Part shown: piece after piece, positions 15,924-53,574 of the stretch | Numbering within the stretch: position 1 is the first letter of the stretch | Layout: each line of letters begins with the position of its first letter | Assembly (NCBI RefSeq): GCF_006345805.1 | Contig: NC_043003.1 | Span: 24,676,001 to 24,740,000 of the forward strand | Source: Octopus sinensis | Lineage: Eukaryota | DNA length: 64,000 nt | Direction: 5' to 3' | Made by a program: the position numbers and the translations under genes | The notes under the pieces: model-generated | Databases searched by the model: none | What the model saw: only the letters and a program-made list of their open reading frames with translations | What the model was told of the DNA's origin: nothing

Positions 15924-17587
15924 TTCTGTACGTGAGAAGACCAGGCAATTCTGTACGTGAGAAGACCAGGCAGGACAAGTGAGCCCAGCCCACTTATGAA
16001 TGCCTTTCCTCCCTTGGACACAAAGACCGGCTGAGGCAAGCGAAGTCGATATAGAACCTCATCCGACGACAGACACCCATGCCAACCCCCCATGCTTGCG
16101 AAGACATGTTGGGGCAAACGAAACGAAATCGAAATCGAATTGAACCAGCCAGGATCCCTGGCCTGGTGGTACGTAAAAAGCACCATCCGACTCGTGGCCG
16201 TGGCACGTAAAATACTCCAATGCGACCGTACGACAGGCACCCATGCCAACCTCCTTTGCTTGTGAAGACATGTTGGGGCAAGCGAAATCGAATTGAACCA
16301 GCCAGGATCCCTGGTCTGGTGGTACGTAAAAAGCACTATCCGACTCGTGGCCGTGGCACGTAAAATACTCCAATGCGACCGTACGACAGGCACCCTTGCC
16401 AACCCCCTTTGCTTGTGAAGACATGTTGGGGCAAACGAAATCGAAATCGAATTGAACCAGCCAGGATCCCTGGTCTGGTGGTACGTAAAAAGCACTATCC
16501 GACTCGTGGCCGTGGCACGTAAAATACTCCAATGCGACCGTACGACAGGCACCCTTGCCAACCCCCTTTGCTTGTGAAGACATGTTGGGGCAACGAAATC
16601 GAAATCGAATTGAACAGCCAGGATCCCTGGTCTGGTGGTACGTAAAAAGCACTATCCGACTCGTGGCCGTGGCACGTAAAATACTCCAATGCGACCGTAC
16701 GACAGGCACCCTTGCCAACCCCCTTTGCTTGTGAAGACATGTTGGGGCAAACGAAATCGAAATCGAATTGAACCAGCCAGGATCCCTGGTCTGGTGGTAC
16801 GTAAAAAGCACTATCGACTCGTGGCCGTGGCACGTAAAATACTCCAATGCGACCGTACGACAGGCACCCTTGCCAACCCCCTTTGCTTGTGAAGACATGT
16901 TGGGGCAAACGAAATCGAAATCGAATTGAACCAGCCAGGATCCCTGGTCTGGTGGTACGTAAAAAGCACTATCCGACTCGTGGCCGTGGCACGTAAAATA
17001 CTCCAATGCGACCGTACGACAGGCACCCTTGCCAACCCCCTTTGCTTGTGAAGACATGTTGGGGCAAACGAAATCGAAATCGAATTGAACCAGCCAGGAT
17101 CCCTGGTCTGGTGGTACGTAAAAAGCACTATCCGACTCGTGGCCGTGGCACGTAAAATACTCCAATGCGACCGTACGACAGGCACCCTTGCCAACCCCCT
17201 TTGCTTGTGAAGACATGTTGGGGCAAACGAAATCGAAATCGAATTGAACCAGCCAGGATCCCTGGTCTGGTGGTACGTAAAAAGCACTATCCGACTCGTG
17301 GCCGATGCCAGCACCGCCTCGACTGGCTTCCGTGCCGGTGGCACATAAAATACACCAATCTGACCGTGGCCGTTGCCAGCCCCGCCTGGCACCTGTGCAG
17401 GTGGCACGTAAAAGCACCCACTACACTCACGGAGTGGTTGGCGTTAGGAAGGGCATCCAGCTGTAGAACATTGCCAAATTAGACTGGAGCCTGGTGCAGC
17501 CTTCTGGCTTCCCAGAACCCCGGTCGAACCGTCCAACCCATGCTAGCATGGAGAACGGACGTTAAACGACGATGATGATGATGATGA
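15924..17587 (+). mobile_element. 5'-truncated RTE insertion (last ORF2 codons, expanded 3'UTR, GAT tail) inside the (TA)n of a family-A SINE
   Basis: Start homologous to 1526-1660; ~26-bp duplication at the 5' junction; SINE halves on both sides (15689-15905 and 17600-17705). Confidence 0.85.
16065..17303 (+). repeat. Tandem array, 159-bp unit, about 8 copies
   Basis: ggggcaa(a)cgaaatcgaa recurs near 16114, 16277, 16431, 16590, 16747, 16905, 17064 and 17223; distal copies are essentially identical. Confidence 0.95.
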
Positions 17588-19440: not shown

Positions 19441-20309
19441 TGTTCGTCTCTGTTGCGTTGCATTCTTTCCTTCTGGGGCTGGCCGATTCAGAGCAGATCT
19501 CAGAATTAAACAGCCGAAATCTGCGATGATGAATCGGTTTCTGACTGAAGAACGAAGGCTTTGAATGACCCGTCTGTCTCTTATGTTCGTCCCTTCGTGT
19601 ATTTCACGTTATTTATATATGTAAAGGTTTATTATATATATATATATATATGTACATACATATATATATAAATTTATTTTCTACATGTTTCAGTCATTGA
19701 ACTGCAGCCATGCGGCGGCACCTCTCTGAAGGGTTTTGTTGAATACATTGACCCCAGTGTTTATTTTTCAAGCCTGGTGCTTGCTCTATCTGTCTCTTTT
19801 GCTGAACCTCTAAGTTATAGAGATGTAAACACACTAACACCAGTTGTCAAGCAGTGATACAGGACAAACACACACACACACATGTTATGGCTCCTTTCAG
19901 TTTCTGTCTACCAAGTTCAATCTCAAAGCTTCGGTCATCCAGCCCGGGGTTTTAGTAGAAGACATTTGTCCGAGTTGCCATGAATGGGACTGAACCCAGA
20001 ACCATGTGGTTGAGAAGTAAACTTCTTACCACACATATTTTACATCCTGGTTTCCATCTATTATGAGCTGAACAATCCTTACACACCACACACACACACA
20101 CACACACATACACGCAATTATGATAGGTTTCCATGCCCCTAATTCCACAAAGAGGGATTTTACTTTTGATCAAACCAAAATCATGGTAGACAGTTACCAA
20201 AGGCACCATGCACTGAGATCAAACCCAAAATCACATAGCTTTGAAACAGACTTCCAAACCATAAGCACACACCCACACACACACGACACAATCATGCTCA
20301 TACACACAC

Positions 20310-20566
20310 ACACACACAAGTATTTATTCTTTGTATAAATCTTTCTTCTTAGCAATAAAATTCCAGATTTCCTTTCATTCTTTCTGATTTATGTGAAATA
20401 TTTGGAAGAAATATTTGCTCATGATATTAGAAAAAAGAAATTGCCGAATAAAAATACAAAGATAAAAATCATTTCTTTTAGATGTGTTAATGCATTACAA
20501 TGTGAAAGTAACTGACATAGCATTTTATATTGCATCCTCATGTGTCTGTGTGTGTGTGTGCATGCA

Positions 20567-20598
<32 letters not shown>

Positions 20599-22020
20599 TC
20601 CCCTTAATACATCTAACAGAGTACTTAATTTTCAGTTATATTTCAAAAAAATACAGCAATGTGCATAAGGCGGATTTGAACTTGCGACTTGTGTAACCGG
20701 TGTTTGTCTCCTTAGCTACCTGCCACTTAATATTCTTGTTGCCGAGATCGTATTGTCTACCTCTGTTCTTTGACTTTCTCTTTCCCTCCCTCTCTCTCTC
20801 TCTCTCTCTTTCACTGTCATATACATGTATATGTGTGTGTGTGTGTTTGTGTGTGTATGTATAGATAGATAGATAGATAGAGATGTACATAAAGGTGTGT
20901 GTGTGTGTGTGTGTGTGTGTGTCTGTTGTATGAATCTGCATATATCCATCCTTCTCACTTTCTATCTCTCTGCTGTAGCCCTCCCTCTGCTGATATCAAC
21001 TGTAAATATTAACTCCAGTTCTATTCTGTTTCTACTGCAAAATGCTGTCTCACATACATAACTACATACATACACACAGCTGTGGACCAACTACCACCTG
21101 CAAGAGAGAACTCCTCCTACCACACACAAATACACACATATACACATACATACACACACACACACACAAGTATTTATTCTTTGTATAAATCTTTCTTCTT
21201 AGCAATAAAATTCCAGATTTCCTTTCATTCTTTCTGATTTATGTGAAATATTTGGAAGAAATATTTGCTCATGATATTAGAAAAAAGAAATTGCCGATAA
21301 AAATACAAAGATAAAAATCATTTCTTTTAGATGTGTTAATGCATTACAATGTGAAAGTAACTGACATAGCATTTTATATTGCATCCTCATGTGTCTGTGT
21401 GTGTGTGTGCATGCATGTGTGTGTGTGTGTGTGTGTGTGAATGTCCCCTTAATACATCTAACAGAGTACTTAATTTTCAGTTATATTTCAAAAAAATACA
21501 GCAATGTGCATAAGGCGGATTTGAACTTGCAACTTGTGTAACCGGTGTTTGTCTCCTTAGCTACCTGCCACTTAATATTCTTGTTGCCGAGATCGTATTG
21601 TCTACCTCTGTTCTTTGACTTTCTCTTTCCCTCCCTCTCTCTCTCTCTCTCTCTTTCACTGTCATATACATGTATATGTGTGTGTGTGTGTTTGTGTGTG
21701 TATGTATAGATAGATAGATAGATAGAGATGTACATAAAGGTGTGTGTGTGTGTGGTGTGTGTGTGTGTGTGTCTGTTGTATGAATCTGCATATATCCATC
21801 CTTCTCACTTTCTATCTCTCTGCTGTAGCCCTCCCTCTGCTGATATCAACTGTAAATATTAACTCCAGTTCTATTCTGTTTCTACTGCAAAATGCTGTCT
21901 CACATACATAACTACATACATACACACAGCTGTGGACCAACTACCACCTGCAAGAGAGAACTCCTCCTACCACACACAAATACACACATATACACATACA
22001 TACACACACACACACACACA
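20310..22020 (+). repeat. 850-bp tandem duplication (2 near-identical copies)
   Basis: tatttattctttgtataaat at 20321 and 21171; ctaccacctgcaagagagaa at 21091 and 21941. Confidence 0.95.
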
Positions 22021-22442: not shown

Positions 22443-25400
22443 TATAAAATGCGTTCTTTTTTTTCTCTCCCATTAAAGTAATTTTCTTTGGGTTTTTTTT
22501 TTATGTTGGTGGGGGAAATCCTCCTAAGACATTAATATTGTTGCTGTTGTTATGACAGTAATAAAGGGGCCTATTTAAAAAAAAAATATATTTTTTAATA
22601 TCTGGATTCAAATACACGATACATATATATACACACACACATATATATATATGCATGCACATGCATGCATTGCAGAAAACTATTATATTGTTATGAGAGC
22701 TATACACATGTTTGTCTAAAAAGAAAATATATAAATATATACATATATATATACACACACGCACAGGCATACGCACATATACAGATATACGTATATACTG
22801 ACATACACATATATATATTTATATGCACACTGACAAACATACACACACACAAAATACAAATTACGCTTACGGTCTGTATATGTCTACCGCAAGGATATTA
22901 ACTGGAAGTAAAATTATTCCCCTCTGTGGTGGTGTTTTTAATGTAAGTACATATACATATATATATATAGCATGCTTTGTATATATTTCTCTTCAACCTT
23001 ACCTTGTTTCATGATTTGTCTGTTGTACATTTACAAACGCATATTCATAGAAGACAGATCTATCTATCTCTCTGTATATCTATCCATCTCTGTATCTATC
23101 CATTGCTTTATCTCTGTTTATCCTTCTATCTGTCTCATGCAACACATTTTACTTACACTAATAACTTATTGACCACTATTATTATTGTTGTTATTGCTAT
23201 TATTATTGTTATTATTATTATCATTATTATTATTGTTATTATTATTATTTTTGTTTATCATTGTTATTATTATTATCATTATTATTATTGTTATTATTAT
23301 TATTTGTGAGCTGGTAGAATCCTTAGTGCATCAGACAAAATGATTAGTGGTATTTCTTCCAGTTCTTGGTGTTCTGAGTTCAAATCCTGCTGAGGTCAGC
23401 TTTGCCTTTCATCGTTCCAGGGTTGATAAAACGAAGTACCACTCAAGTACTTGAACTGATGCACTCAACTAAATCCTTACCCCTAAAGTTACTGGCATTG
23501 TGATTAAATTTGAAACATCATCATCATCATCATTATTATTATTATTCAGTAGTTTTATTTTTATAGTGTGCTTTCACTTCACTACCAAGCGCAGCTCTGT
23601 GTGCCTTGGGTATGTGCTGTGGTTTGCTATGATGCTCTTATGGTTACTATTGTTATAATTATTATTATTATTAAGGTAGTGGGCTGGTAGAATTGTTAGT
23701 ATGTCAGGCAAAATGCCTGGCGGCATTTTATCCATCTTTATGATCTGAGTTCAAATTCTGCCGAGGTCGACTACTTTGCCTTTCATCCTTCCAGGGTCGA
23801 TAAAATAAGTACCAGTTGGACACTGGGGGGTCGATGTAATCAACTTACACTCTCCCCCAAAATAGCTGGCCTTGTGCCAGTGCCAATATTTGAAACTGTC
23901 ATCATTATCATCATCATCATCATTATTATTATTATTATTATTTCGAAATTTGTGCTTGTGTGTTTTTGTATGCATGAAAGAAGGCGTTAAATATTTGTTC
24001 TTTACAAGCTATTGTGCAGTTTTTTTTTGTTTTGTTTTGTTGGGTTTTTTTTTAACTTTTAGTAGACACACATTGACAATGATAAATTTAACTTCAGTTT
24101 TTTTTTGTTTTGTTTTTTGCAGTGGGGATATTGTGAATATATCTCACACACACACAACACACACCTCTTGTTATATGTAAATGCATAAGTGAATATCAAT
24201 GTGTATAGATATGTGAATATGTATACAAAAATGCATGTGTAAATGCGTGCATGTGCACAAGTTTGAATGTGTGTGTGTTTGTGCGAATGTATAAATCTGC
24301 ATAAAGATGATTGTACATGTGTATGTTTGTGCGCATTTATACATGTATGTGTGCATGTGATCGTGTAAATATATAAATGCGTATACATATGTGTTTGTGT
24401 AGGAATATGCATATTTATTTGTGTGAATGAGTGTGTGTGTGTGTATGTATATATGGATGCATATATATGCACATGTACTCTACATGCATTTGCAAACACT
24501 AACCTTATTGAGTATTTGATGTTCTCATTGTGGTTTAACCCCTGGTTAGTTCTGATTGAATGGGCCTGTGACTATATCTAAGACTGCATTACTCAACGTA
24601 CCCTTTCTTTTTCCTTAAGACATCAGGATGTGATTGGAGGGGAATTTGGTCGACATTTCTAGCAAATCTATTGAGTATGTAGTGGCTACCTTGGTGGCTG
24701 ATTCGAAATTTGAACACAAATTAGTAGTTCATTATATGCTTATGCACACTGGTATAGGTGCTTATTTTACTGCCAAGTTAAGAATGTCTGTATCCATATT
24801 TATTGTTCTGAGTTGCTGATTTATTAATCACCTGTGTGTGTGCGCGCACGCGCATGTGTGTGATTACCATTGTCATGTTAATGTCCACTTTTCTGTGGTT
24901 GCATGGGTCAGATGGAACTCATCGAGGCAGCTTGTCTACAGCCGGCTGCCTTTGTATTTTTTGTCTTGTTACCAACAGTCACCTGTTTCCAAGCAATATA
25001 ATATTTCCACGTTGCATTGCTAAACGTGTTTTCGCAACAGAGTAGAAGTGAAGGCTTGTGTTTGTGTGACTGCGACACTCATTTGTAACTATCGTGCATT
25101 TTCAAAACAAAGAGACACAAACACATGCTTGTGTGCACATGCACACACACATGCAAACACGCATATGTACACACACACACACACATTTATATGTACACGA
25201 CTTCTTTCTTTCGGTTTCCATCCACGAAATCTTTTCAGAAGTCTTTGGTCAGCCTAGGTCTATTTGCCCAAGGTGTTTTGGTTGTGCAGTGGGACTGAAA
25301 GCAAAGCCATGTGCTTATGAAGGGAATTTCTCAACTACAAAGCCATGTCTGCACGCACTCTCTCTCTCGCACACACACACAATAATGTGTAGAAAATCAA

Positions 25401-41934: not shown

Positions 41935-43004
41935 TGATATCCAACAGGTGCTTTGAAAAGGTTCAGTCTGCATCATCACCACTGAGCTGCAGTCTAATGT
42001 TGGTTGTGAACCTCAGCTTTTGCACATTGCTTCATAGTTAGGATGACTTCATGTTGGCATTTACCTCATCAGCTCTTGTTCCCTTTTGCAACCACAGGAA
42101 GGGTTTGTCTAAAGTCTCCTGCAAGCAACACTCTGGCACCTCCCACGAGCCTGCTGTTGTGTCTCAGATCCTGAAGGGCCATGTCAAGAGCGTCAAAGGA
42201 AACCTTATGGCTCATTGTCGCCTCATCCCAGATGATCAATCTTCATTCACCTAGAAGTTTGCCTTTTATAAAACCACGACTGATGTTGCAGTTTACCTTC
42301 TCTTTCTTGGACAGGTCCAAAGGGAGTTTGAAACAGGAATGAGCTGTGCGGCCACCACTTAGCAGAGTTGCAGCTATTCCACTTGACACCACTGCTATGG
42401 CAATGTTTCATTTGGCACAGTTTAGCCAGAAGAAGGTTGATCACAAATGTCTTACCAGTTCCACTTGGAGCATCGTGAAAGAAAAGACCTCCTCTTTCAC
42501 TTTCAATGCTCGAAATAATGGTCTTATAAACCTGCCCAACTTATATTGCTGAATTCCATCTGCCTGCCTGCCCTCCTGTTCAAGTCCAAAAACTGCCGTA
42601 TCTGAACCCTTATTGTTGTATTTACATATGTATTTCATACTTTTTATAGAGTTGCATGACTCAGCATTAACCCGTGCCTGCAATGTTTTAGACAGCAATG
42701 AATTGTAGGGCAGGATCCACCTGTTGTCAATTTCTATCCCTTGACAATTAACTTTGAGCTTGGTAGTGTTTAAGGTGAGCAATGGAAAATGAATTGGTTA
42801 TTTCTCTTAGCTGTTAAAGGGAAAGATATGGATGTGGGCCCTAGCCATCCAATTATAGATTTTTATTAAACTTCAATGAACCTAGTAACTGGATGTTACT
42901 TTAACATGTTTGCAAAGTTTCACAAAAATTTGTTAACAGGTGTAAACGGTAACTTGACACAAACAGACATCCAAACAGACAACTTGCGTTTATATATGTA
43001 CAGA
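41935..43004 (-). mobile_element. Internally deleted Helitron (5' end, Rep fragment and PIF1-helicase fragment)
   Basis: Minus strand: 5' TC terminus at 43004; IDNRWILPYNSLLSK...KYICKYNNKGSD (Rep); SSGIAATLLSGGRTAHSCFKLPL, IIWDEATMSHK and GGARVLLAGDFRQTLPV (helicase), with stops and frameshifts. Confidence 0.9.
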
Positions 43005-47845: not shown

Positions 47846-48321
47846 GTAAGATTTGCCATCTGAGTTTTCTGAGTTTTATTGCATCTTTATGCATATTTTA
47901 CATTTGTATATTTGTGCATGCATGTGTGCATATTTATGTTTTTATATAGTTGCACTGGTGCAGTTGCATGTCTGTTTTGCATTGCAGAGAACTTGAGAAC
48001 TTCACTTGCATTGTCTTGTTTTAAGTTTTATGCCTATTTCTACAGTGTGTGTGTGTATATGCACACTTACACACATATACACAAACATGTGTATGTGTAT
48101 AGATGTATATATACTAATGTATGTATACATACATATGTGTGTGGTGTGTATGCATGTATATATATATATATACACATATGTATATGTGTGTATGTATATA
48201 TATATTCTATATATATATATAATTTGCACAACAAATATTTAAAACGTACTAACAAATATATATATATATTATATATATAATATATATATATATATATTAT
48301 ATATATTTATTATATAGAAGG

Positions 48322-48371
48322 AGCTTCTACAGGACTAGTACTGTTTCATTCAAGAGAATCTTCAGGAAGCT
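48322..48371 (-). ncRNA. Type I hammerhead ribozyme motif (Penelope-like-element type), core intact
   Basis: Minus strand reads AGCUUC-CUGAAGA-UUCUCUUGAAU-GAAA-CAG UACUAGUC CUGU-A-GAAGCU. 6-bp stem I, CUGANGA and GAAA cores, short stem II, stem III ACAG/CUGU within a near-palindrome, GUA cleavage triplet. Confidence 0.8.
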
Positions 48372-48684
48372 ATTTAAACCAGAATTGTATTAGCATTTAT
48401 ACATTTAGGCATGTTTTAAAGGAGTGGTGGTGGGGGACTTTTTTGGGGGTAGGCATAGCGCAAATTATCATACTTGGGGGAGTGGTCAAGGAGTCAGAGG
48501 TAAGTTTAGGTGAAGAATAGATAAATAAAAAATAAAAAATAAAAAATAAAAAATAAAAAAAAAATAAATGTGTGCACATACATACATAAACCATATACAT
48601 ACACACACACATACGTACACATGTGTGCCTATACATACCTACACATACACGCATACACATACATACATATATATATATACACAC

Positions 48685-48715
<31 letters not shown>

Positions 48716-49077
48716 ATACTATATATAATATAATATACACAATCCAATACAGGCCCATTCCCTAATTTTAATTTTATTATCTTCATTTATTACTTTTGTT
48801 ATCTTTGATCGCTAGAGCTAAGGATCCTGGCGATGGCAGCATGTCCAAATTGTCTGTCTACTAGAAGGCAAGTACTCGTTCCCACACCACAACCACTCAT
48901 TAGCACGTACATACACCCATTCGTACACTCATACACATACACGTACGCACGCGTTATATTCATACATACAAAACATCTACATACGTTCACGTATATACAC
49001 ATACGTACTCATACCTACAGATTCATGTCTACACTTTAGGAGGCTAGTCTATATATATACACCAATAAATATACATA

Positions 49078-49109
<32 letters not shown>

Positions 49110-49236
49110 CCACATATAAACATACACACACACACACACATATATACTCCTACATACAGATACATACCTATATATATATATATATATATATATACCCACA
49201 CATACATGTACATATAATATATATACATATACATAC

Positions 49237-49267
<31 letters not shown>

Positions 49268-49499
49268 CACATATACATACATACATACACAACACCCCAT
49301 ATATATACACACACATCATACACATATATATACATACACAAACTATATACACACATATATATATATATTATATATACAATACACACATACATACACACAC
49401 CTACATACATATACACACAAACACATACATACGTAAACATACATACATACATCCATACATCCATACTTACATGCACTTATACGCATACACACACCCCCA

Positions 49500-49549
<50 letters not shown>

Positions 49550-50105
49550 CACACTCACACATACATATACAAATATACGCCCACACATACATACATACAT
49601 ACATACACGTATACGCATACACGCACATACACATATACATGCGTACCCATACACGTGCCCACACGCACATGCATCCATATGTATACACACACACACATAT
49701 ATACACGTGTGCAAGCATACATACATACTCATACACGCACACATACTTACATATACATATATGCACACACTTACACACATATATACATACACATTACATG
49801 CATACATACATATATGCATACTACAACATACACGCACATACACATATACACATGCGTACCCATACACGTGCACGCACGCACGCGCATCCATATATATACA
49901 CACGCCCACATATATAACACGTGTGCAAGCATACATACATACTTACACGCGCACATACTTACATATACATATATGCACACACACTTCCACACATATATAC
50001 ATACACATATACATGCATACATACATATATGCATACATACACACACGCGCACTCATATATACATTATATATACACCACATACACATATATACATATACAT
50101 ATATA

Positions 50106-50136
<31 letters not shown>

Positions 50137-50759
50137 ATATATTTTTATACACATATACACATACACATGTGTATAAAAATATATATATATATATATAATA
50201 TATATATGTATATGTATATATGTGTATGTGTGTGTATATATATTGTATATATGAGTGCGCGTGTGTGTATGTATGCATATATGTATGTATGCATGTATAT
50301 GTGTATGTATATGTGTGGAAGTGTGTGCATATATGTATATGTAAGTATGTGCGCGTGTATGAGTATGTATGTATGCTTGCACACGGTATATATATGTGTG
50401 CGTGTGTATATATATGGATGCGCGTGCGTGCGTGCACGTGTATGGGTACGCATGTGTATATGTGTATGTGCGTGTATGTGTATGTATGCATATATGTATG
50501 TATGCATGTATATGTGTATGTATATATGTGTGTAAGTGTGTGCATATATGTATATGTAAGTATGTGTGCTGTATGAGTATTATGTATGCTTGCACACGTG
50601 TATATATGTGTGTGTGTGTATACATTGGATGCATGTGCGTGTGGGCACGTGTTGGCGCATGTATGTATGGGTACGCATGTATATGTGATGTGCGTGTATG
50701 CGTATACGTGTATGTATGTATGTATGTGTGGGCGTACATTTGTATATGTATGTGTGAGT

Positions 50760-50801
<42 letters not shown>

Positions 50802-51037
50802 ATATATATAGATGGGGGTGTGTGTATGCGTATAAGTGCATGTAAGTATGGATGTATGGATGTATGTATGTATGTTTACGTATGTATGTGTTTGTGTGTA
50901 TATGTATGTAGGTGTGTGTATGTATGTGTGTATATATATATATATTATGTGTGTATATATGTTTGTGTATGTATATATATGTGTATGTATGTGTGTGTAT
51001 ATATATGGGTGTGTGTGTATGTATGTATGTATATGTG

Positions 51038-51068
<31 letters not shown>

Positions 51069-51922
51069 GTATGTATATGTATATATATATATGTACATGT
51101 ATGTGTGGGTATATATATATATATATATATTATATAGGTATGTATCTGTATGTAGGAGTATATATGTGTGTGTGTTGGTGTATGTGTATATGTGTAATAT
51201 ATATATGTATATATATATATATATATGTATATTTATTGGTGTATATATATAGACTAGCCTCCTAATTGTAGACATGAATCTGTAGGTATGAGTACGTATG
51301 TGTATATACGTGAACGTATGTAGATGTTTGTATGTATGAATATAACGCGTGCGTACGTGTATGTGTATGAGTGTACGAATGGGTGTATGTACGTGCTAAT
51401 GAGTGTGCGTGTGGGAACGAGTACTTGCCTTCTAGTAGACAGACAATTTGGACATGCTGCCATCGCCAGGATCCTTAGCTCTAGCGATCAAAGATAACAA
51501 AGTAATAATGAAGATAATAAAATTAAATTAGGAATGGGCCTGTATTGGATTGTGTATATATATTATATATATGTAATATATATATTATATATATTATTAT
51601 ATATATGGTTATATATATATATGATGTATGTGTATGCGTGTATGTGTAGGTATGTATAGGCCCACATGTACGTATGTGTGTGTGTATGTATATGTGTTTA
51701 TGTATGTATGTGCCACATTTATTTTTTTTATTTTTTTTATTTTTAATTTTTTTTTTTATTTTTTATTTTTTTTTTATCTATTCTTTCACCTAACTTACCT
51801 CTGACTCCTTGACCACTCCCCAAGTATGATAATTTGCGCTATGCCTACCCCCAAAAAAGTCCCCCACCACCACTCCTTTAAACTGCCTAAATGTATAAAT
51901 GCTAATACAATTCTTGTTAAAT

Positions 51923-51972
51923 AGCTCCTGAAGATTTCTCTTGAATGAAACAGTACTAGTCCTGTAGAAGCT
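51923..51972 (+). ncRNA. Type I hammerhead ribozyme motif, mirror copy at the right end of the palindrome
   Basis: agctc-ctgaaga-tttctcttgaat-gaaa-cagtactagtcctgt-a-gaagct. Differs from the left copy only by single-T indels. Predicted cleavage 3' of A51966. Confidence 0.78.
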
Positions 51973-52053
51973 CCTTCTATATATAAATTAATTTATACTG
52001 GTATGTATTGAGTACCTTACTTACTGTGGTTAACCCCGGATCAACCCGGGACC

Positions 52054-52094
<41 letters not shown>

Positions 52095-53574
52095 TCATAT
52101 ACTTACATATATATAAAATTGTCCAAATTTTGTTATCATCTAAATTTCTCTTTCTCTCTTGTGTGTGTGTGTGTGTGAATGTGTATCTATATATGAGTGA
52201 TAAAGAAATTTATATACAGACAAAATGTGGCTTTATTTTCTAACTTTTCATTATCACAAATGAGTATTTATAAGTTATGGATTTTGTTGTAAGTTCTTTT
52301 CCTCTATTTCTATCTATCTATATCTGTGTATGTGTATATATTTCTGTATACATCTATTTGTATTCTTATCTCTAAATCTCCCTCCCTCACTCTTTTCTCA
52401 CTTATTACACTTTCTTTCTATCTATCTATTTATCTGTCTTTCCTTCAGTCTATATCTTATCTCTCTTTCTCTCTCTCCCTTCCTCCCTCATTTTTTAAAG
52501 ATATAACCAACGGACTTGATTTTATTAAATTAGTATTGATTACCTATATTGGCTATTTGTACATCTGTATGTATTATTAAACAGAGAATAGAGTGCCTAA
52601 AGCTAAGACTTACATAGTGCCACACCACTCTAACCCCCTTCTCACTTCCCAAAGGGTATTTGTATAAAAGAAGCAGGTCTTTGTGCCAATCTTTCGGTAT
52701 TATTGTGTTTCTTCCATTTATTCACATTTTATTTCCTCGGTGGGTGAATAAAGAAACAGTGCCAAACAGATAACCACTTGAACAGAGCACAACAGAACAA
52801 AAGTAAGCTAAGCAGAAAATTTACCATTTATGTGCATGCACCATTCTGTGACTGTAAATGAGCACGCAGTGAATATATTTATAAACAGAAACATACATAA
52901 TACATATATATACATATATATGTTTGTATAAACACACATAGATTTGCTTGTATACTCTCTTGGTCGTGGTTTTGTTTTATATCCATTTTCAATCAAGAAT
53001 CCTTCCTTGTGTTCCAGTTCTGCTTTAAAATATTGGACCACACATAAATATGAAGATCTTCTTCACTCGGAAAAAATTGCCTTGAGCTATCTGCTCCAAC
53101 CCTTTATGTTCTGAGTTCAAATGCCTCTGAGGTTGACTTTGCCCTTCATCCTTTTAGGGTTGATGAAATAAGTACAAATTGGGCACTAGGGCTAGATGTA
53201 ATTGACTTATCTCCTACCCAAGAATGACTGATCTTATTCCAAAATTTGGAACCTCTATTATTATTATTATTACCATTATTATTAAGGCTGCAAGCTGGTA
53301 AAATTATTAGCACACTAGACGAAATGTCTAACCACGTTTCTTCCAGTTCTTTACATTCTGGGTTCAAATTCCACTGAGGAATTGATGCAATTGACTTCCC
53401 TTCCCCTCAAAAACTGCCAGCCCTTTGCCAAAATTTGGAGCCATTATTAAGGTGACAAGCTATCAGAATCATTAGTTTGTTGGACAAAATGCGTAGTGAT
53501 ATTTTTTCTGGTTCTCTATGCTTTGAGGTCAACTTTGCCTTTCATCCTTTCAGGATTGATACAATAAGGTACCT

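What the first reader, a model, noticed from the sequence alone, without database searches (positions are those of the whole stretch)
51923..51972. Core-intact hammerhead in the sense orientation of the ArfGAP1-like intron
Seen: CUGAAGA and GAAA cores, a GUA triplet, and stem III within the near-palindrome ACAGUACUAGUCCUGU. Combining the two copies gives a 6-bp stem I and a U.U plus 3-bp stem II. The + copy lies ~4 kb downstream of the exon donor. Known: palindromic stem III lets PLE hammerheads act as dimers, and intronic self-cleaving ribozymes occur in animal genes. Inference: it could cut the pre-mRNA co-transcriptionally, unless pairing with the upstream antisense arm (48322-48371) silences it, which would be a built-in structural switch.
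Basis: partly seen in the sequence, partly recalled or inferred. Interest (0 to 1): 0.75.

Follow-up and report, generated by a model that had tools for sequence, protein, structure and literature searches.

The report
Octopus repeat's self-masked intronic hammerhead
The hammerhead-shaped motif belongs to a very abundant octopus repeat, likely a Penelope-type retrotransposon, that sits as a 3.7-kb mirror-image insertion just downstream of an ArfGAP1 exon, where pairing with its own mirror copy would likely keep it from cutting the gene's RNA.

Summary
The motif is real but not gene-specific. A type I hammerhead core (CUGAAGA, U·U plus 3-bp stem II, GAAA, 4-bp stem III with a palindromic loop, GUA at 51964-51966) lies near the outer end of each arm of a head-to-head palindrome (48305-50154 / 50167-51988, 12-nt spacer). 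The right arm carries an extra 68-nt tail, and both ends abut (TA)n. Short-read contigs show a high-copy repeat family: 1,253 and 6,136 contigs from two runs lay on 288 bp. The only listed substitution inside the motif is at N7, and family contigs carry the T that gives a 6-bp stem I; as assembled, the + copy lacks it. The layout matches Penelope-like element (PLE) insertions, though no RT ORF was found. The upstream exon is ArfGAP1-like (30/30 residues). In a read-through transcript the antisense arm is made first and is predicted to zip over the ribozyme (-106 kcal/mol against about -3 to -7 for the hammerhead fold). That points to constitutive masking, not a switch, and leaves no same-strand dimer partner in cis. 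Cleavage is untested, Rfam gives no hammerhead hit, and no read spans the palindrome centre. Verdict: a likely PLE passenger, moderately interesting.

The parts
22880..22942 (+). Alternative first coding exon of a short ArfGAP1-like isoform (21 codons, GTAAGT donor follows)
   Evidence: Exact match to residues 1-21 of P0010/P0016
47756..47845 (+). ArfGAP1-like internal exon, 30 codons, AG...GTAAGA
   Evidence: 30/30 identity to residues 219-248 of P0002, which has Pfam ArfGap at E 3.6e-34 and is named Octopus ArfGAP1-like. No downstream exon found in the window
48256..48304 (.). (TA)n-rich left flank; inferred insertion target
   Evidence: TRF rows 48157-48316 and 48256-48316
48305..50154 (-). 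Left arm: antisense copy of the element, tail-less 3' end facing outward
   Evidence: Alignment to the right arm: 1740 matches in 1857 columns, 14 substitutions, 61 gap events; outer end from blastn
48322..48371 (-). Hammerhead copy 2 (6-bp stem I; one T fewer at the stem II entry); predicted cut after 48328
   Evidence: Only descriptor hit in the window; fold
50155..50166 (.). 12-nt spacer at the centre of the palindrome
   Evidence: Sequence
50167..51988 (+). Right arm: sense copy of the element, microsatellite-rich, no recognisable ORF
   Evidence: four arm/tail ORFs without Pfam hit at E<=0.1
51923..51972 (+). Hammerhead copy 1 (the finding): type I, U10.1·U11.1 + 3-bp stem II, 4-bp stem III with palindromic loop, predicted cut at 51966/51967; stem I one T short as assembled
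   Evidence: family variation
51963..51981 (+). Local 8-bp hairpin that buries the GUA site and the 3' strand of stem I (competing fold)
   Evidence: MFE once 8 or more downstream nt are present in the + copy
51989..52056 (+). 68-nt 'tail' on the right end only, part of the same repeat family, ending in a GC-rich stem-loop
   Evidence: Family contigs bridge ribozyme to tail: X1 record 7, X2 records 16 and 17; fold
52057..52092 (.). (AT)18 right flank; inferred insertion target
   Evidence: TRF

Best explanation
The motif is the type I hammerhead-shaped 3' segment of a high-copy octopus repeat, likely a Penelope-like retrotransposon family, that sits in a (TA)n tract downstream of an ArfGAP1 exon as a head-to-head mirror pair predicted to keep the ribozyme paired and silent in the host pre-mRNA. 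Steps: (1) SHOWN: the motif, its 150-nt upstream flank and the tail belong to a family with thousands of variant contigs. (2) SHOWN in the assembly: two arms meet at a 12-nt spacer, 3' ends face outward, one end has a tail, both ends abut (TA)n. (3) INFERRED from published PLE anatomy: one integration event by a PLE RT/GIY-YIG enzyme acting in trans or on a truncated RNA, with fold-back self-priming, made both arms from one template. (4) INFERRED: the ribozyme serves the element's own RNA, probably slowly and helped by dimerisation or protein. (5) PREDICTED: read-through transcription in either direction makes the antisense arm first, so a hairpin of about 1.8 kb nucleates at the spacer and covers the sense ribozyme as it emerges; a local 8-bp hairpin also competes. 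The copy is therefore most likely a tolerated passenger.
For: (4 of 24 listed runs laid on 51775-52062): 1,253 contigs (X1) and 6,136 (X2), most 90-99% alike. Of 11 listed substitution sites, 1 lies in 51923-51972, and it is 51932 = N7, the free core position (X1 110,396 of 418,570 depth; X2 231,461 of 787,036). Loose ends with that change also differ in loop II. A T is put in behind 51925 (X1 56,971 of 238,274; X2 55,299 of 310,373; X9 466.8 of 470.8), restoring 6-bp stem I; no deletion is listed at 51935-37. Contigs bridge ribozyme and tail; one X9 loose end behind 51981 runs into AT repeats like the tail-less left end. The arms differ by 1 substitution in their outer 217 columns, closer than most family contigs are to the window, so they share a template. 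Published PLE traits match: head-to-head inverted copies with palindromic junctions (PMC3846280); inverted 5'-truncated copy, one-sided tail and (TA)n targets (PMC8557442); dual hammerheads on opposite strands (PMC4209133). The tail ends 90 nt after the cut site; in the anole PLE the RT start lies 85-92 nt after it (my arithmetic from PMC11167929). 30 Penelope families have recently active copies in O. vulgaris (PMC13282606). Arm-arm duplex is -105.8 kcal/mol over 66 nt and -361.7 over 215 nt, against -2.6 (+) and -7.1 (-) for the hammerhead folds.
Against: No RT or GIY-YIG sequence was found in the part of the right arm examined, so PLE identity rests on architecture. The ribozyme lacks features reported for metazoan PLE hammerheads (G10.1-C11.1, long stem II, minimal stem III). 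The tail is 68 nt, not the usual 30-40. Rfam gives no hit. One substitution in 50 nt is not a significant depletion (about 2 of 11 expected by length). The T-containing form is only 24% and 18% of depth at 51925 in X1 and X2 as tabulated, and family contigs cannot be assigned to this locus. The arms differ mostly by 1-nt gaps (61 gap events, 14 substitutions), as unpolished long-read consensus or a fold-back artefact would give, and no read was laid across the centre or the outer flanks. Whether the microsatellite-rich middle belongs to the family was not tested. No downstream exon lies in the window, so 'intronic' is inferred from the donor and the 313 residues that follow in P0002.
Confidence: 0.68

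Rival explanations
1. The palindrome is a long-read fold-back or repeat-mediated misjoin. The genome holds one copy here, or the right arm and flank come from another locus, so there is either an unmasked ribozyme or none in this intron.
For: Gap-dominated arm differences, 61 gap events vs 14 substitutions; 12-nt spacer; fold-back artefacts are a known class (PMC12870357, PMC6218980; search listing only); no exon downstream of the insertion lies in the window to anchor the right flank.
Against: A simple fold-back would mirror one flank. Here the flanks are unrelated and the two ends differ by the tail, and both end types have look-alikes among independent contigs. The inversion stops about 20 nt past the ribozyme, at the element's edge. 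Such structures are documented as real PLE insertions.
Confidence: 0.13
2. The repeat is a hammerhead-bearing non-autonomous element of another class (retrozyme-like, SINE-like or fold-back DNA element), not a PLE fragment.
For: No ORF in the part of the arm examined; ribozyme differs from the PLE minimal consensus; one X2 contig joins 51983 back to 51926, a tandem ribozyme pair.
Against: No tandem direct unit in the window, whereas retrozymes are 220-350-nt tandem units (PMC7229834). Ends are asymmetric, unlike terminal inverted repeats. A preprint argues animal retrozymes are PLE derivatives anyway.
Confidence: 0.11
3. One reading: a host-adopted switch in which the ribozyme cuts ArfGAP1 pre-mRNA unless the upstream arm pairs with it.
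For: Sense orientation 4.08 kb past the donor. The next exon differs among isoforms, with three alternatives. Conserved intronic hammerheads exist in vertebrates (PMC3088659).
Against: It is one copy of a very abundant family with nearly identical arms, so probably recent. The energy gap of about 100 kcal/mol leaves no switchable balance. No cis dimer partner exists. The + copy as assembled has P of about 0.001 of forming all three stems even alone. Alternative next exons also occur in O. bimaculoides isoforms.
Confidence: 0.05
4. The motif is a catalytically dead look-alike throughout the family.
For: No Rfam hit; weak folding; U·U instead of G10.1-C11.1; competing hairpin.
Against: All core positions are intact, and the listed family variation falls at N7 and loop II. 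Descriptor chance is 0 of 300 at stem I >=5 bp. Natural hammerheads with U10.1·U11.1 are reported, and that mismatch is the best tolerated (PMC3088659 section 8).
Confidence: 0.03

Closest known systems
Hammerheads in pseudo-LTRs of Penelope-like elements (Cervera and De la Pena 2014, PMC4209133)
   Same: Type I topology, intact core, palindromic loop III, dispersed high-copy occurrence, pairs on opposite strands.
   Different: U10.1·U11.1 and 3-bp stem II instead of G-C and 6-8 bp; 4-bp stem III that can form in a monomer; the two copies are 3.6 kb apart rather than 100-700 bp; no ORF seen.
Head-to-head inverted PLE insertions with one-sided tail (PMC3846280, PMC8557442, PMC11167929)
   Same: Inverted 5'-truncated copy, palindromic junction, 3' ends outward, tail on one end, AT-rich target.
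   Different: Tail 68 nt rather than 30-40; both arms apparently non-coding and microsatellite-rich; target-site duplication cannot be read in (TA)n.
Non-LTR retrozymes (PMC7229834; bioRxiv 10.64898/2026.07.22.740005)
   Same: Type I hammerhead in a non-coding animal repeat; intronic copies are common (42-44% of Xenopus copies) though depleted.
   Different: No tandem 220-350-nt units here; inverted rather than direct arrangement.
Conserved intronic hammerheads of vertebrates, C10orf118 and RECK (PMC3088659)
   Same: Hammerhead inside an intron of a protein-coding gene.
   Different: Those are conserved across mammals (RECK also birds) and shown to cleave; this is one copy of an abundant repeat, untested, and covered by its own antisense arm.

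Membership tests
Type I hammerhead ribozyme | Core C3 U4 G5 A6 N7 G8 A9, G12 A13 A14, A15.1-U16.1, H17 | tested here: met
   51928-34, 51947-50, 51965-66; identical in the - copy
Type I hammerhead ribozyme | Three stems around the core | tested here: inconclusive
   Met by the - copy (6/3/4 bp) and by family contigs with a T behind 51925; the + copy as assembled has a bulged stem I and fails the descriptor
Type I hammerhead ribozyme | Pair 10.1-11.1 (usually G-C) | tested here: not met
   U·U in the + copy with no substitution listed there in family contigs; natural U·U cases are reported, so this is a tolerated deviation
Type I hammerhead ribozyme | Match to an Rfam hammerhead model | tested here: not met
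Type I hammerhead ribozyme | Site-specific self-cleavage | not testable with these tools
   Needs an in vitro assay or RNA-end mapping; only contigs were available
Metazoan PLE minimal hammerhead (min-HHR) | G10.1-C11.1, extra nucleotide between 9 and 10.1, long stem II, minimal stem III | tested here: not met
   Short stem II with U·U; 4-bp stem III
Metazoan PLE minimal hammerhead (min-HHR) | Palindromic loop III allowing strand-swapped dimers | tested here: met
   Cofold dimer 12.4 kcal/mol below two monomers for each copy; a prediction, in trans only at this locus
Penelope-like element | RT + GIY-YIG ORF | tested here: inconclusive
   None in 51250-52060 (four ORFs without Pfam hit); the inner arm reads as microsatellite; absence is expected of a 5'-truncated or non-autonomous copy; the autonomous partner could not be sought because no genome is held
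Penelope-like element | Hammerhead near the 3' terminal repeat | tested here: met
   Ribozyme ends 16 nt inside the shared arm end
Penelope-like element | Inverted 5'-truncated copy, head to head, palindromic junction | tested here: met
   in the assembly, not confirmed by spanning reads
Penelope-like element | Tail on one end only (30-40 bp) | tested here: inconclusive
   One-sided family-derived extension present but 68 nt long
Penelope-like element | Dispersed multi-copy family, AT-rich or microsatellite target | tested here: met
   1,253 and 6,136 variant contigs; (TA)n at both ends
Non-LTR retrozyme | Short tandem direct units each with a hammerhead | tested here: not met
   No second same-strand copy in the window; one tandem joint in one X2 contig only
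Host-domesticated intronic ribozyme | Single-copy, conserved at the orthologous intron | tested here: not met
   High-copy; presence at the orthologous site in other species was not tested

The most novel reading that the evidence does not exclude
Head-to-head inversion is how a ribozyme-bearing retroelement hides from its host: whichever way a gene reads through it, the antisense arm is made first and masks the hammerhead, so palindromic copies survive in introns where solo sense copies would cut the pre-mRNA and be purged. In octopus, an abundant family with an active U·U-core hammerhead would make this testable genome-wide, and A-to-I editing of the 1.8-kb duplex could weaken the mask and turn some copies into editing-gated pre-mRNA cutters.
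Probability: 0.12. Interest if true: 0.68.

Novelty: new member of a known kind. Interest (0 to 1): 0.3.

Why it matters
As it most likely stands, it adds an octopus hammerhead-bearing repeat family with an atypical short U·U stem II. I found no such family described in my searches: 'octopus' + 'hammerhead ribozyme' listed 4 papers, none on it by title or abstract start; PMC7229834 has no 'octop' or 'cephalop'; the O. vulgaris repeat annotation has no 'ribozyme'. Lunse et al. on PLE hammerhead variants was not available and may cover it. The family is invisible to Rfam. It offers many natural variants for asking whether PLE hammerheads cut in vivo, still an open question (no reads ended at the cut site in the anole study), and whether inverted insertion geometry protects host introns. 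For ArfGAP1 itself the likelier effect is a 1.8-kb intronic duplex, not ribozyme control.

Tried and rejected
No whole genome is held, so copy number, the full family consensus and an autonomous partner could not be obtained. Rfam gave no hammerhead hit; the low-scoring miRNA hits sit on microsatellites and were dropped. Exact-pattern scans found nothing in metagenome contigs, viral contigs or prokaryotic genomes. The run search reported 'no RNA holder listed'. X9 is RNA only by guess, so its 93 contigs were used for sequence variants and not as evidence of expression. X11 (organism E, 0.28 of words) laid a single 37-bp piece with 7 differences; an uncovered part proves no absence, so lineage restriction of the family is not claimed. 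Summed contig depth (up to about 1-2.7 million) is not a copy number and was not converted. Two other CUGAUGA...GAAAC strings on + (35068, 57286) fail the descriptor and fold otherwise. Peptide-motif and splice-site scans and tblastn or 7-mer scans found no ArfGAP1 exon downstream of 47845. Earlier-findings look-ups returned nothing. No covariance model was built, because two near-identical copies carry no covariation. The supplement of PMC13282606 was listed but not read; bioRxiv supplements were closed; either could name the family. Cis-dimer model rejected: the copies are on opposite strands.

Full report
OBSERVATION. The 50 nt at 51923-51972 (+) hold a complete type I hammerhead core: C3-A9 at 51928-51934, U 51935, a 3-bp stem II (51936-38/51943-45) with a 4-nt loop, U 51946, G12-A14 at 51947-49, a 4-bp stem III (51950-53/51962-65) around an 8-nt loop containing a 6-nt palindrome, and GUA at 51964-66, which puts the predicted cut at 51966/51967. 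A second copy lies antisense at 48322-48371. As assembled, the + copy has a bulged stem I and fails a type I descriptor even at 4 contiguous pairs; the - copy is the only hit in the window on either strand. In 300 surrogate windows (first-order Markov per 1-kb block) the descriptor hit once at stem I >=4 bp and never at >=5 bp. Rfam returned no hammerhead at gathering score in the window or at E<=10 on either copy. Neither copy folds better than shuffles.

HOST GENE. The exon 47756-47845 matches residues 219-248 of P0002 at 30 of 30. P0002 has a Pfam ArfGap domain (E 3.6e-34) and its cluster is named ArfGAP1-like in Octopus species. An alternative first exon at 22880-22942 matches two O. bimaculoides isoforms, so the gene runs on +. 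No later exon lies in the remaining 16 kb. That the motif is intronic is therefore inferred from the GT donor at 47846 and the 313 residues still to come in P0002.

SURROUNDINGS. The 'antisense arm' is one half of a head-to-head palindrome: 48305-50154 against 50167-51988, with a 12-nt spacer. Over 1857 aligned columns there are 1740 matches, 14 substitutions and 61 gap events, mostly of 1 nt; the outer 217 columns have 1 substitution and 9 gaps. The interior is microsatellite-rich. ORFs listed for 51250-52060 show nothing recognisable, and four of them gave no Pfam hit. The left end runs straight into (TA)n. The right end has 68 more nt (51989-52056) and then (AT)18. No other copy occurs in the window.

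FAMILY EVIDENCE. Twenty of 24 listed runs hold part of 51780-52900, 7 of them half or more of its words. I laid 4 of the 24 on 51775-52062 at 80% likeness. X1 gave 1,253 contigs and X2 6,136, most 90-99% alike, over all 29 bins, so ribozyme, upstream flank and tail all belong to a high-copy repeat. Of 11 listed substitution sites, one falls in the motif: 51932 A>T, the unconstrained N7 position (26% of depth in X1, 29% in X2). Loose ends with that change also differ in loop II. One site in 50 nt is not a significant depletion, but its position is what a constrained ribozyme predicts. A T is put in behind 51925, giving the 6-bp stem I (24% of depth in X1, 18% in X2, 99% in X9; clipped contigs at that place show the same T, so the first two figures may understate it). 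No deletion is listed in the TTT run, so U·U plus 3 bp appears to be the family form. Three listed contigs run from the ribozyme into the tail (X1 record 7, X2 records 16 and 17), and one X9 loose end leaves at 51981 into AT repeats like the tail-less left end. X11 laid one 37-bp piece; this is not read as absence. No run is on record as RNA, so nothing is said on expression.

WHAT IT IS. The layout is the one described for Penelope-like element insertions: head-to-head inverted copies with palindromic junctions, read as self-priming (PMC3846280, passages); an inverted 5'-truncated copy, a tail on one end and a bias for (TA)n or other microsatellite targets (PMC8557442, passages); dual hammerheads on opposite strands and low in vitro activity (PMC4209133, parts 1-2 of 4). 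In the anole PLE, reverse transcription starts 111-118 nt into the ORF and the ribozyme cuts at +26; by my arithmetic that is 85-92 nt after the cut, and here the tail ends 90 nt after it. That ribozyme needed protein and was dispensable for insertion in vitro (PMC11167929, parts 1-2 of 4). O. vulgaris has 30 Penelope families with 329 recently active insertions (PMC13282606, passages; Penelope also among abundant cephalopod repeats in PMC8967140, passages). Against membership: no RT or endonuclease ORF was found, the tail is longer than the usual 30-40 bp, and the ribozyme lacks the G10.1-C11.1 pair and long stem II of metazoan PLE hammerheads. Natural U10.1·U11.1 hammerheads are reported, and that mismatch is the best tolerated (PMC3088659, passages and section 8). 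It works like a PLE terminal hammerhead; PLE membership is likely, not shown.

HOW IT LIKELY BEHAVES HERE. All of this is prediction. The hammerhead fold is worth -2.6 kcal/mol for the + copy and -7.1 for the - copy. The chance that all three stems form is about 0.001 for the + copy, and 0.25, 0.18, 0.04 and 0.14 for the - copy with 0, 8, 15 and 30 downstream nt, because an 8-bp hairpin at 51963-51981 buries the GUA site. The stem III palindrome favours a trans dimer by 12.4 kcal/mol, but a + transcript holds only one sense ribozyme, so no cis dimer can form. Pairing with the upstream arm gives -105.8 kcal/mol over 66 nt and -361.7 over 215 nt. The antisense arm is transcribed first and the arms meet at a 12-nt spacer, so the duplex can nucleate at the centre and follow the polymerase. 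By symmetry this holds for read-through in either direction. The expected state is OFF by default; nothing in the sequence suggests a trigger. Protein coating or A-to-I editing could change this in vivo and was not tested.

RIVALS. An assembly fold-back or misjoin (0.13) fits the gap-dominated arm differences and the lack of a downstream exon, but not the unlike flanks, the one-sided tail or the inversion ending at the element's edge; no read was laid across the centre (fold-back papers seen as search listings only). A non-PLE carrier (0.11) fits the missing ORF; retrozymes are short tandem units (PMC7229834, passages; bioRxiv 10.64898/2026.07.22.740005, part 1 of 5 and passages), which are not seen here. 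A host-adopted switch (0.05) has only position in its favour. A dead look-alike across the family (0.03) conflicts with the intact core and the N7 variation.

NOVELTY AND VERDICT. Hammerheads in PLE ends, inverted insertions and intronic copies are all known (also reviewed in PMC6765202, passages). I found no description of this octopus family. The Lunse et al. paper on PLE hammerhead variants was not held (title seen in a reference list) and unread supplements could cover it. New member of a known kind; interest 0.30. The boldest open reading, that inverted geometry shields host introns from the element's own ribozyme and that editing can lift the shield, gets probability 0.12 and interest 0.68.

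Noticed in passing
run X2 contigs laid on window 51967-51983 (loose ends): A loose-end consensus before 51983 matches the family back to G51967 and then turns into unrelated AT-rich sequence, i.e. a copy that seems to begin exactly at the predicted cut site. The far part rests on few contigs (14 contigs, median 11 nt), so it is only a hint that cleaved RNA was retrotransposed.
   Followed up: no
run X2 contig, joint 51983 to 51926: One contig holds two same-strand ribozymes in tandem about 63 nt apart, an arrangement that could dimerise in cis.
   Followed up: no
window 48497-48505 and 48524-48568 (+): The antisense arm brings a consensus 5' splice site (GAG/GTAAGT) and six AATAAA hexamers into the sense strand of the intron, 650-720 nt past the exon; possible cryptic splicing or early polyadenylation.
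   Followed up: no
window 47846 onward: Octopus ArfGAP1 isoforms continue from this exon into three different next exons, so the insertion lies upstream of an alternatively spliced region.
   Followed up: partly
window 22880-22942 (+): Alternative first exon giving an ArfGAP1 isoform without the GAP domain, identical over 21 residues to O. bimaculoides isoforms.
   Followed up: partly
window 42247-42797 (-): Broken PIF1-like helicase fragment (Pfam PF05970, E 4.5e-06), probably a Helitron remnant (label from my own knowledge).
   Followed up: partly
window 16066-17304 and 20266-22018: A tandem array of roughly 160-bp units at about 97% identity, and a direct duplication of about 855 bp at 97.6%; either may be recent or an assembly duplication.
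   Followed up: no
window 50244-50652 and its mirror in the left arm: A 213-bp unit occurs 1.9 times inside each arm, so the internal duplication predates the inversion.
   Followed up: no
window 35068 (+) and 57286 (+): Core-like CUGAUGA...GAAAC strings without a matching stem I; possibly decayed hammerheads of other repeats.
   Followed up: partly
run X11 record 9, on window 51941-51977: A 1,431-nt contig of organism E matches only the 3' half of the ribozyme (37 bp, 7 differences) with unrelated flanks; a related ribozyme family or chance.
   Followed up: no
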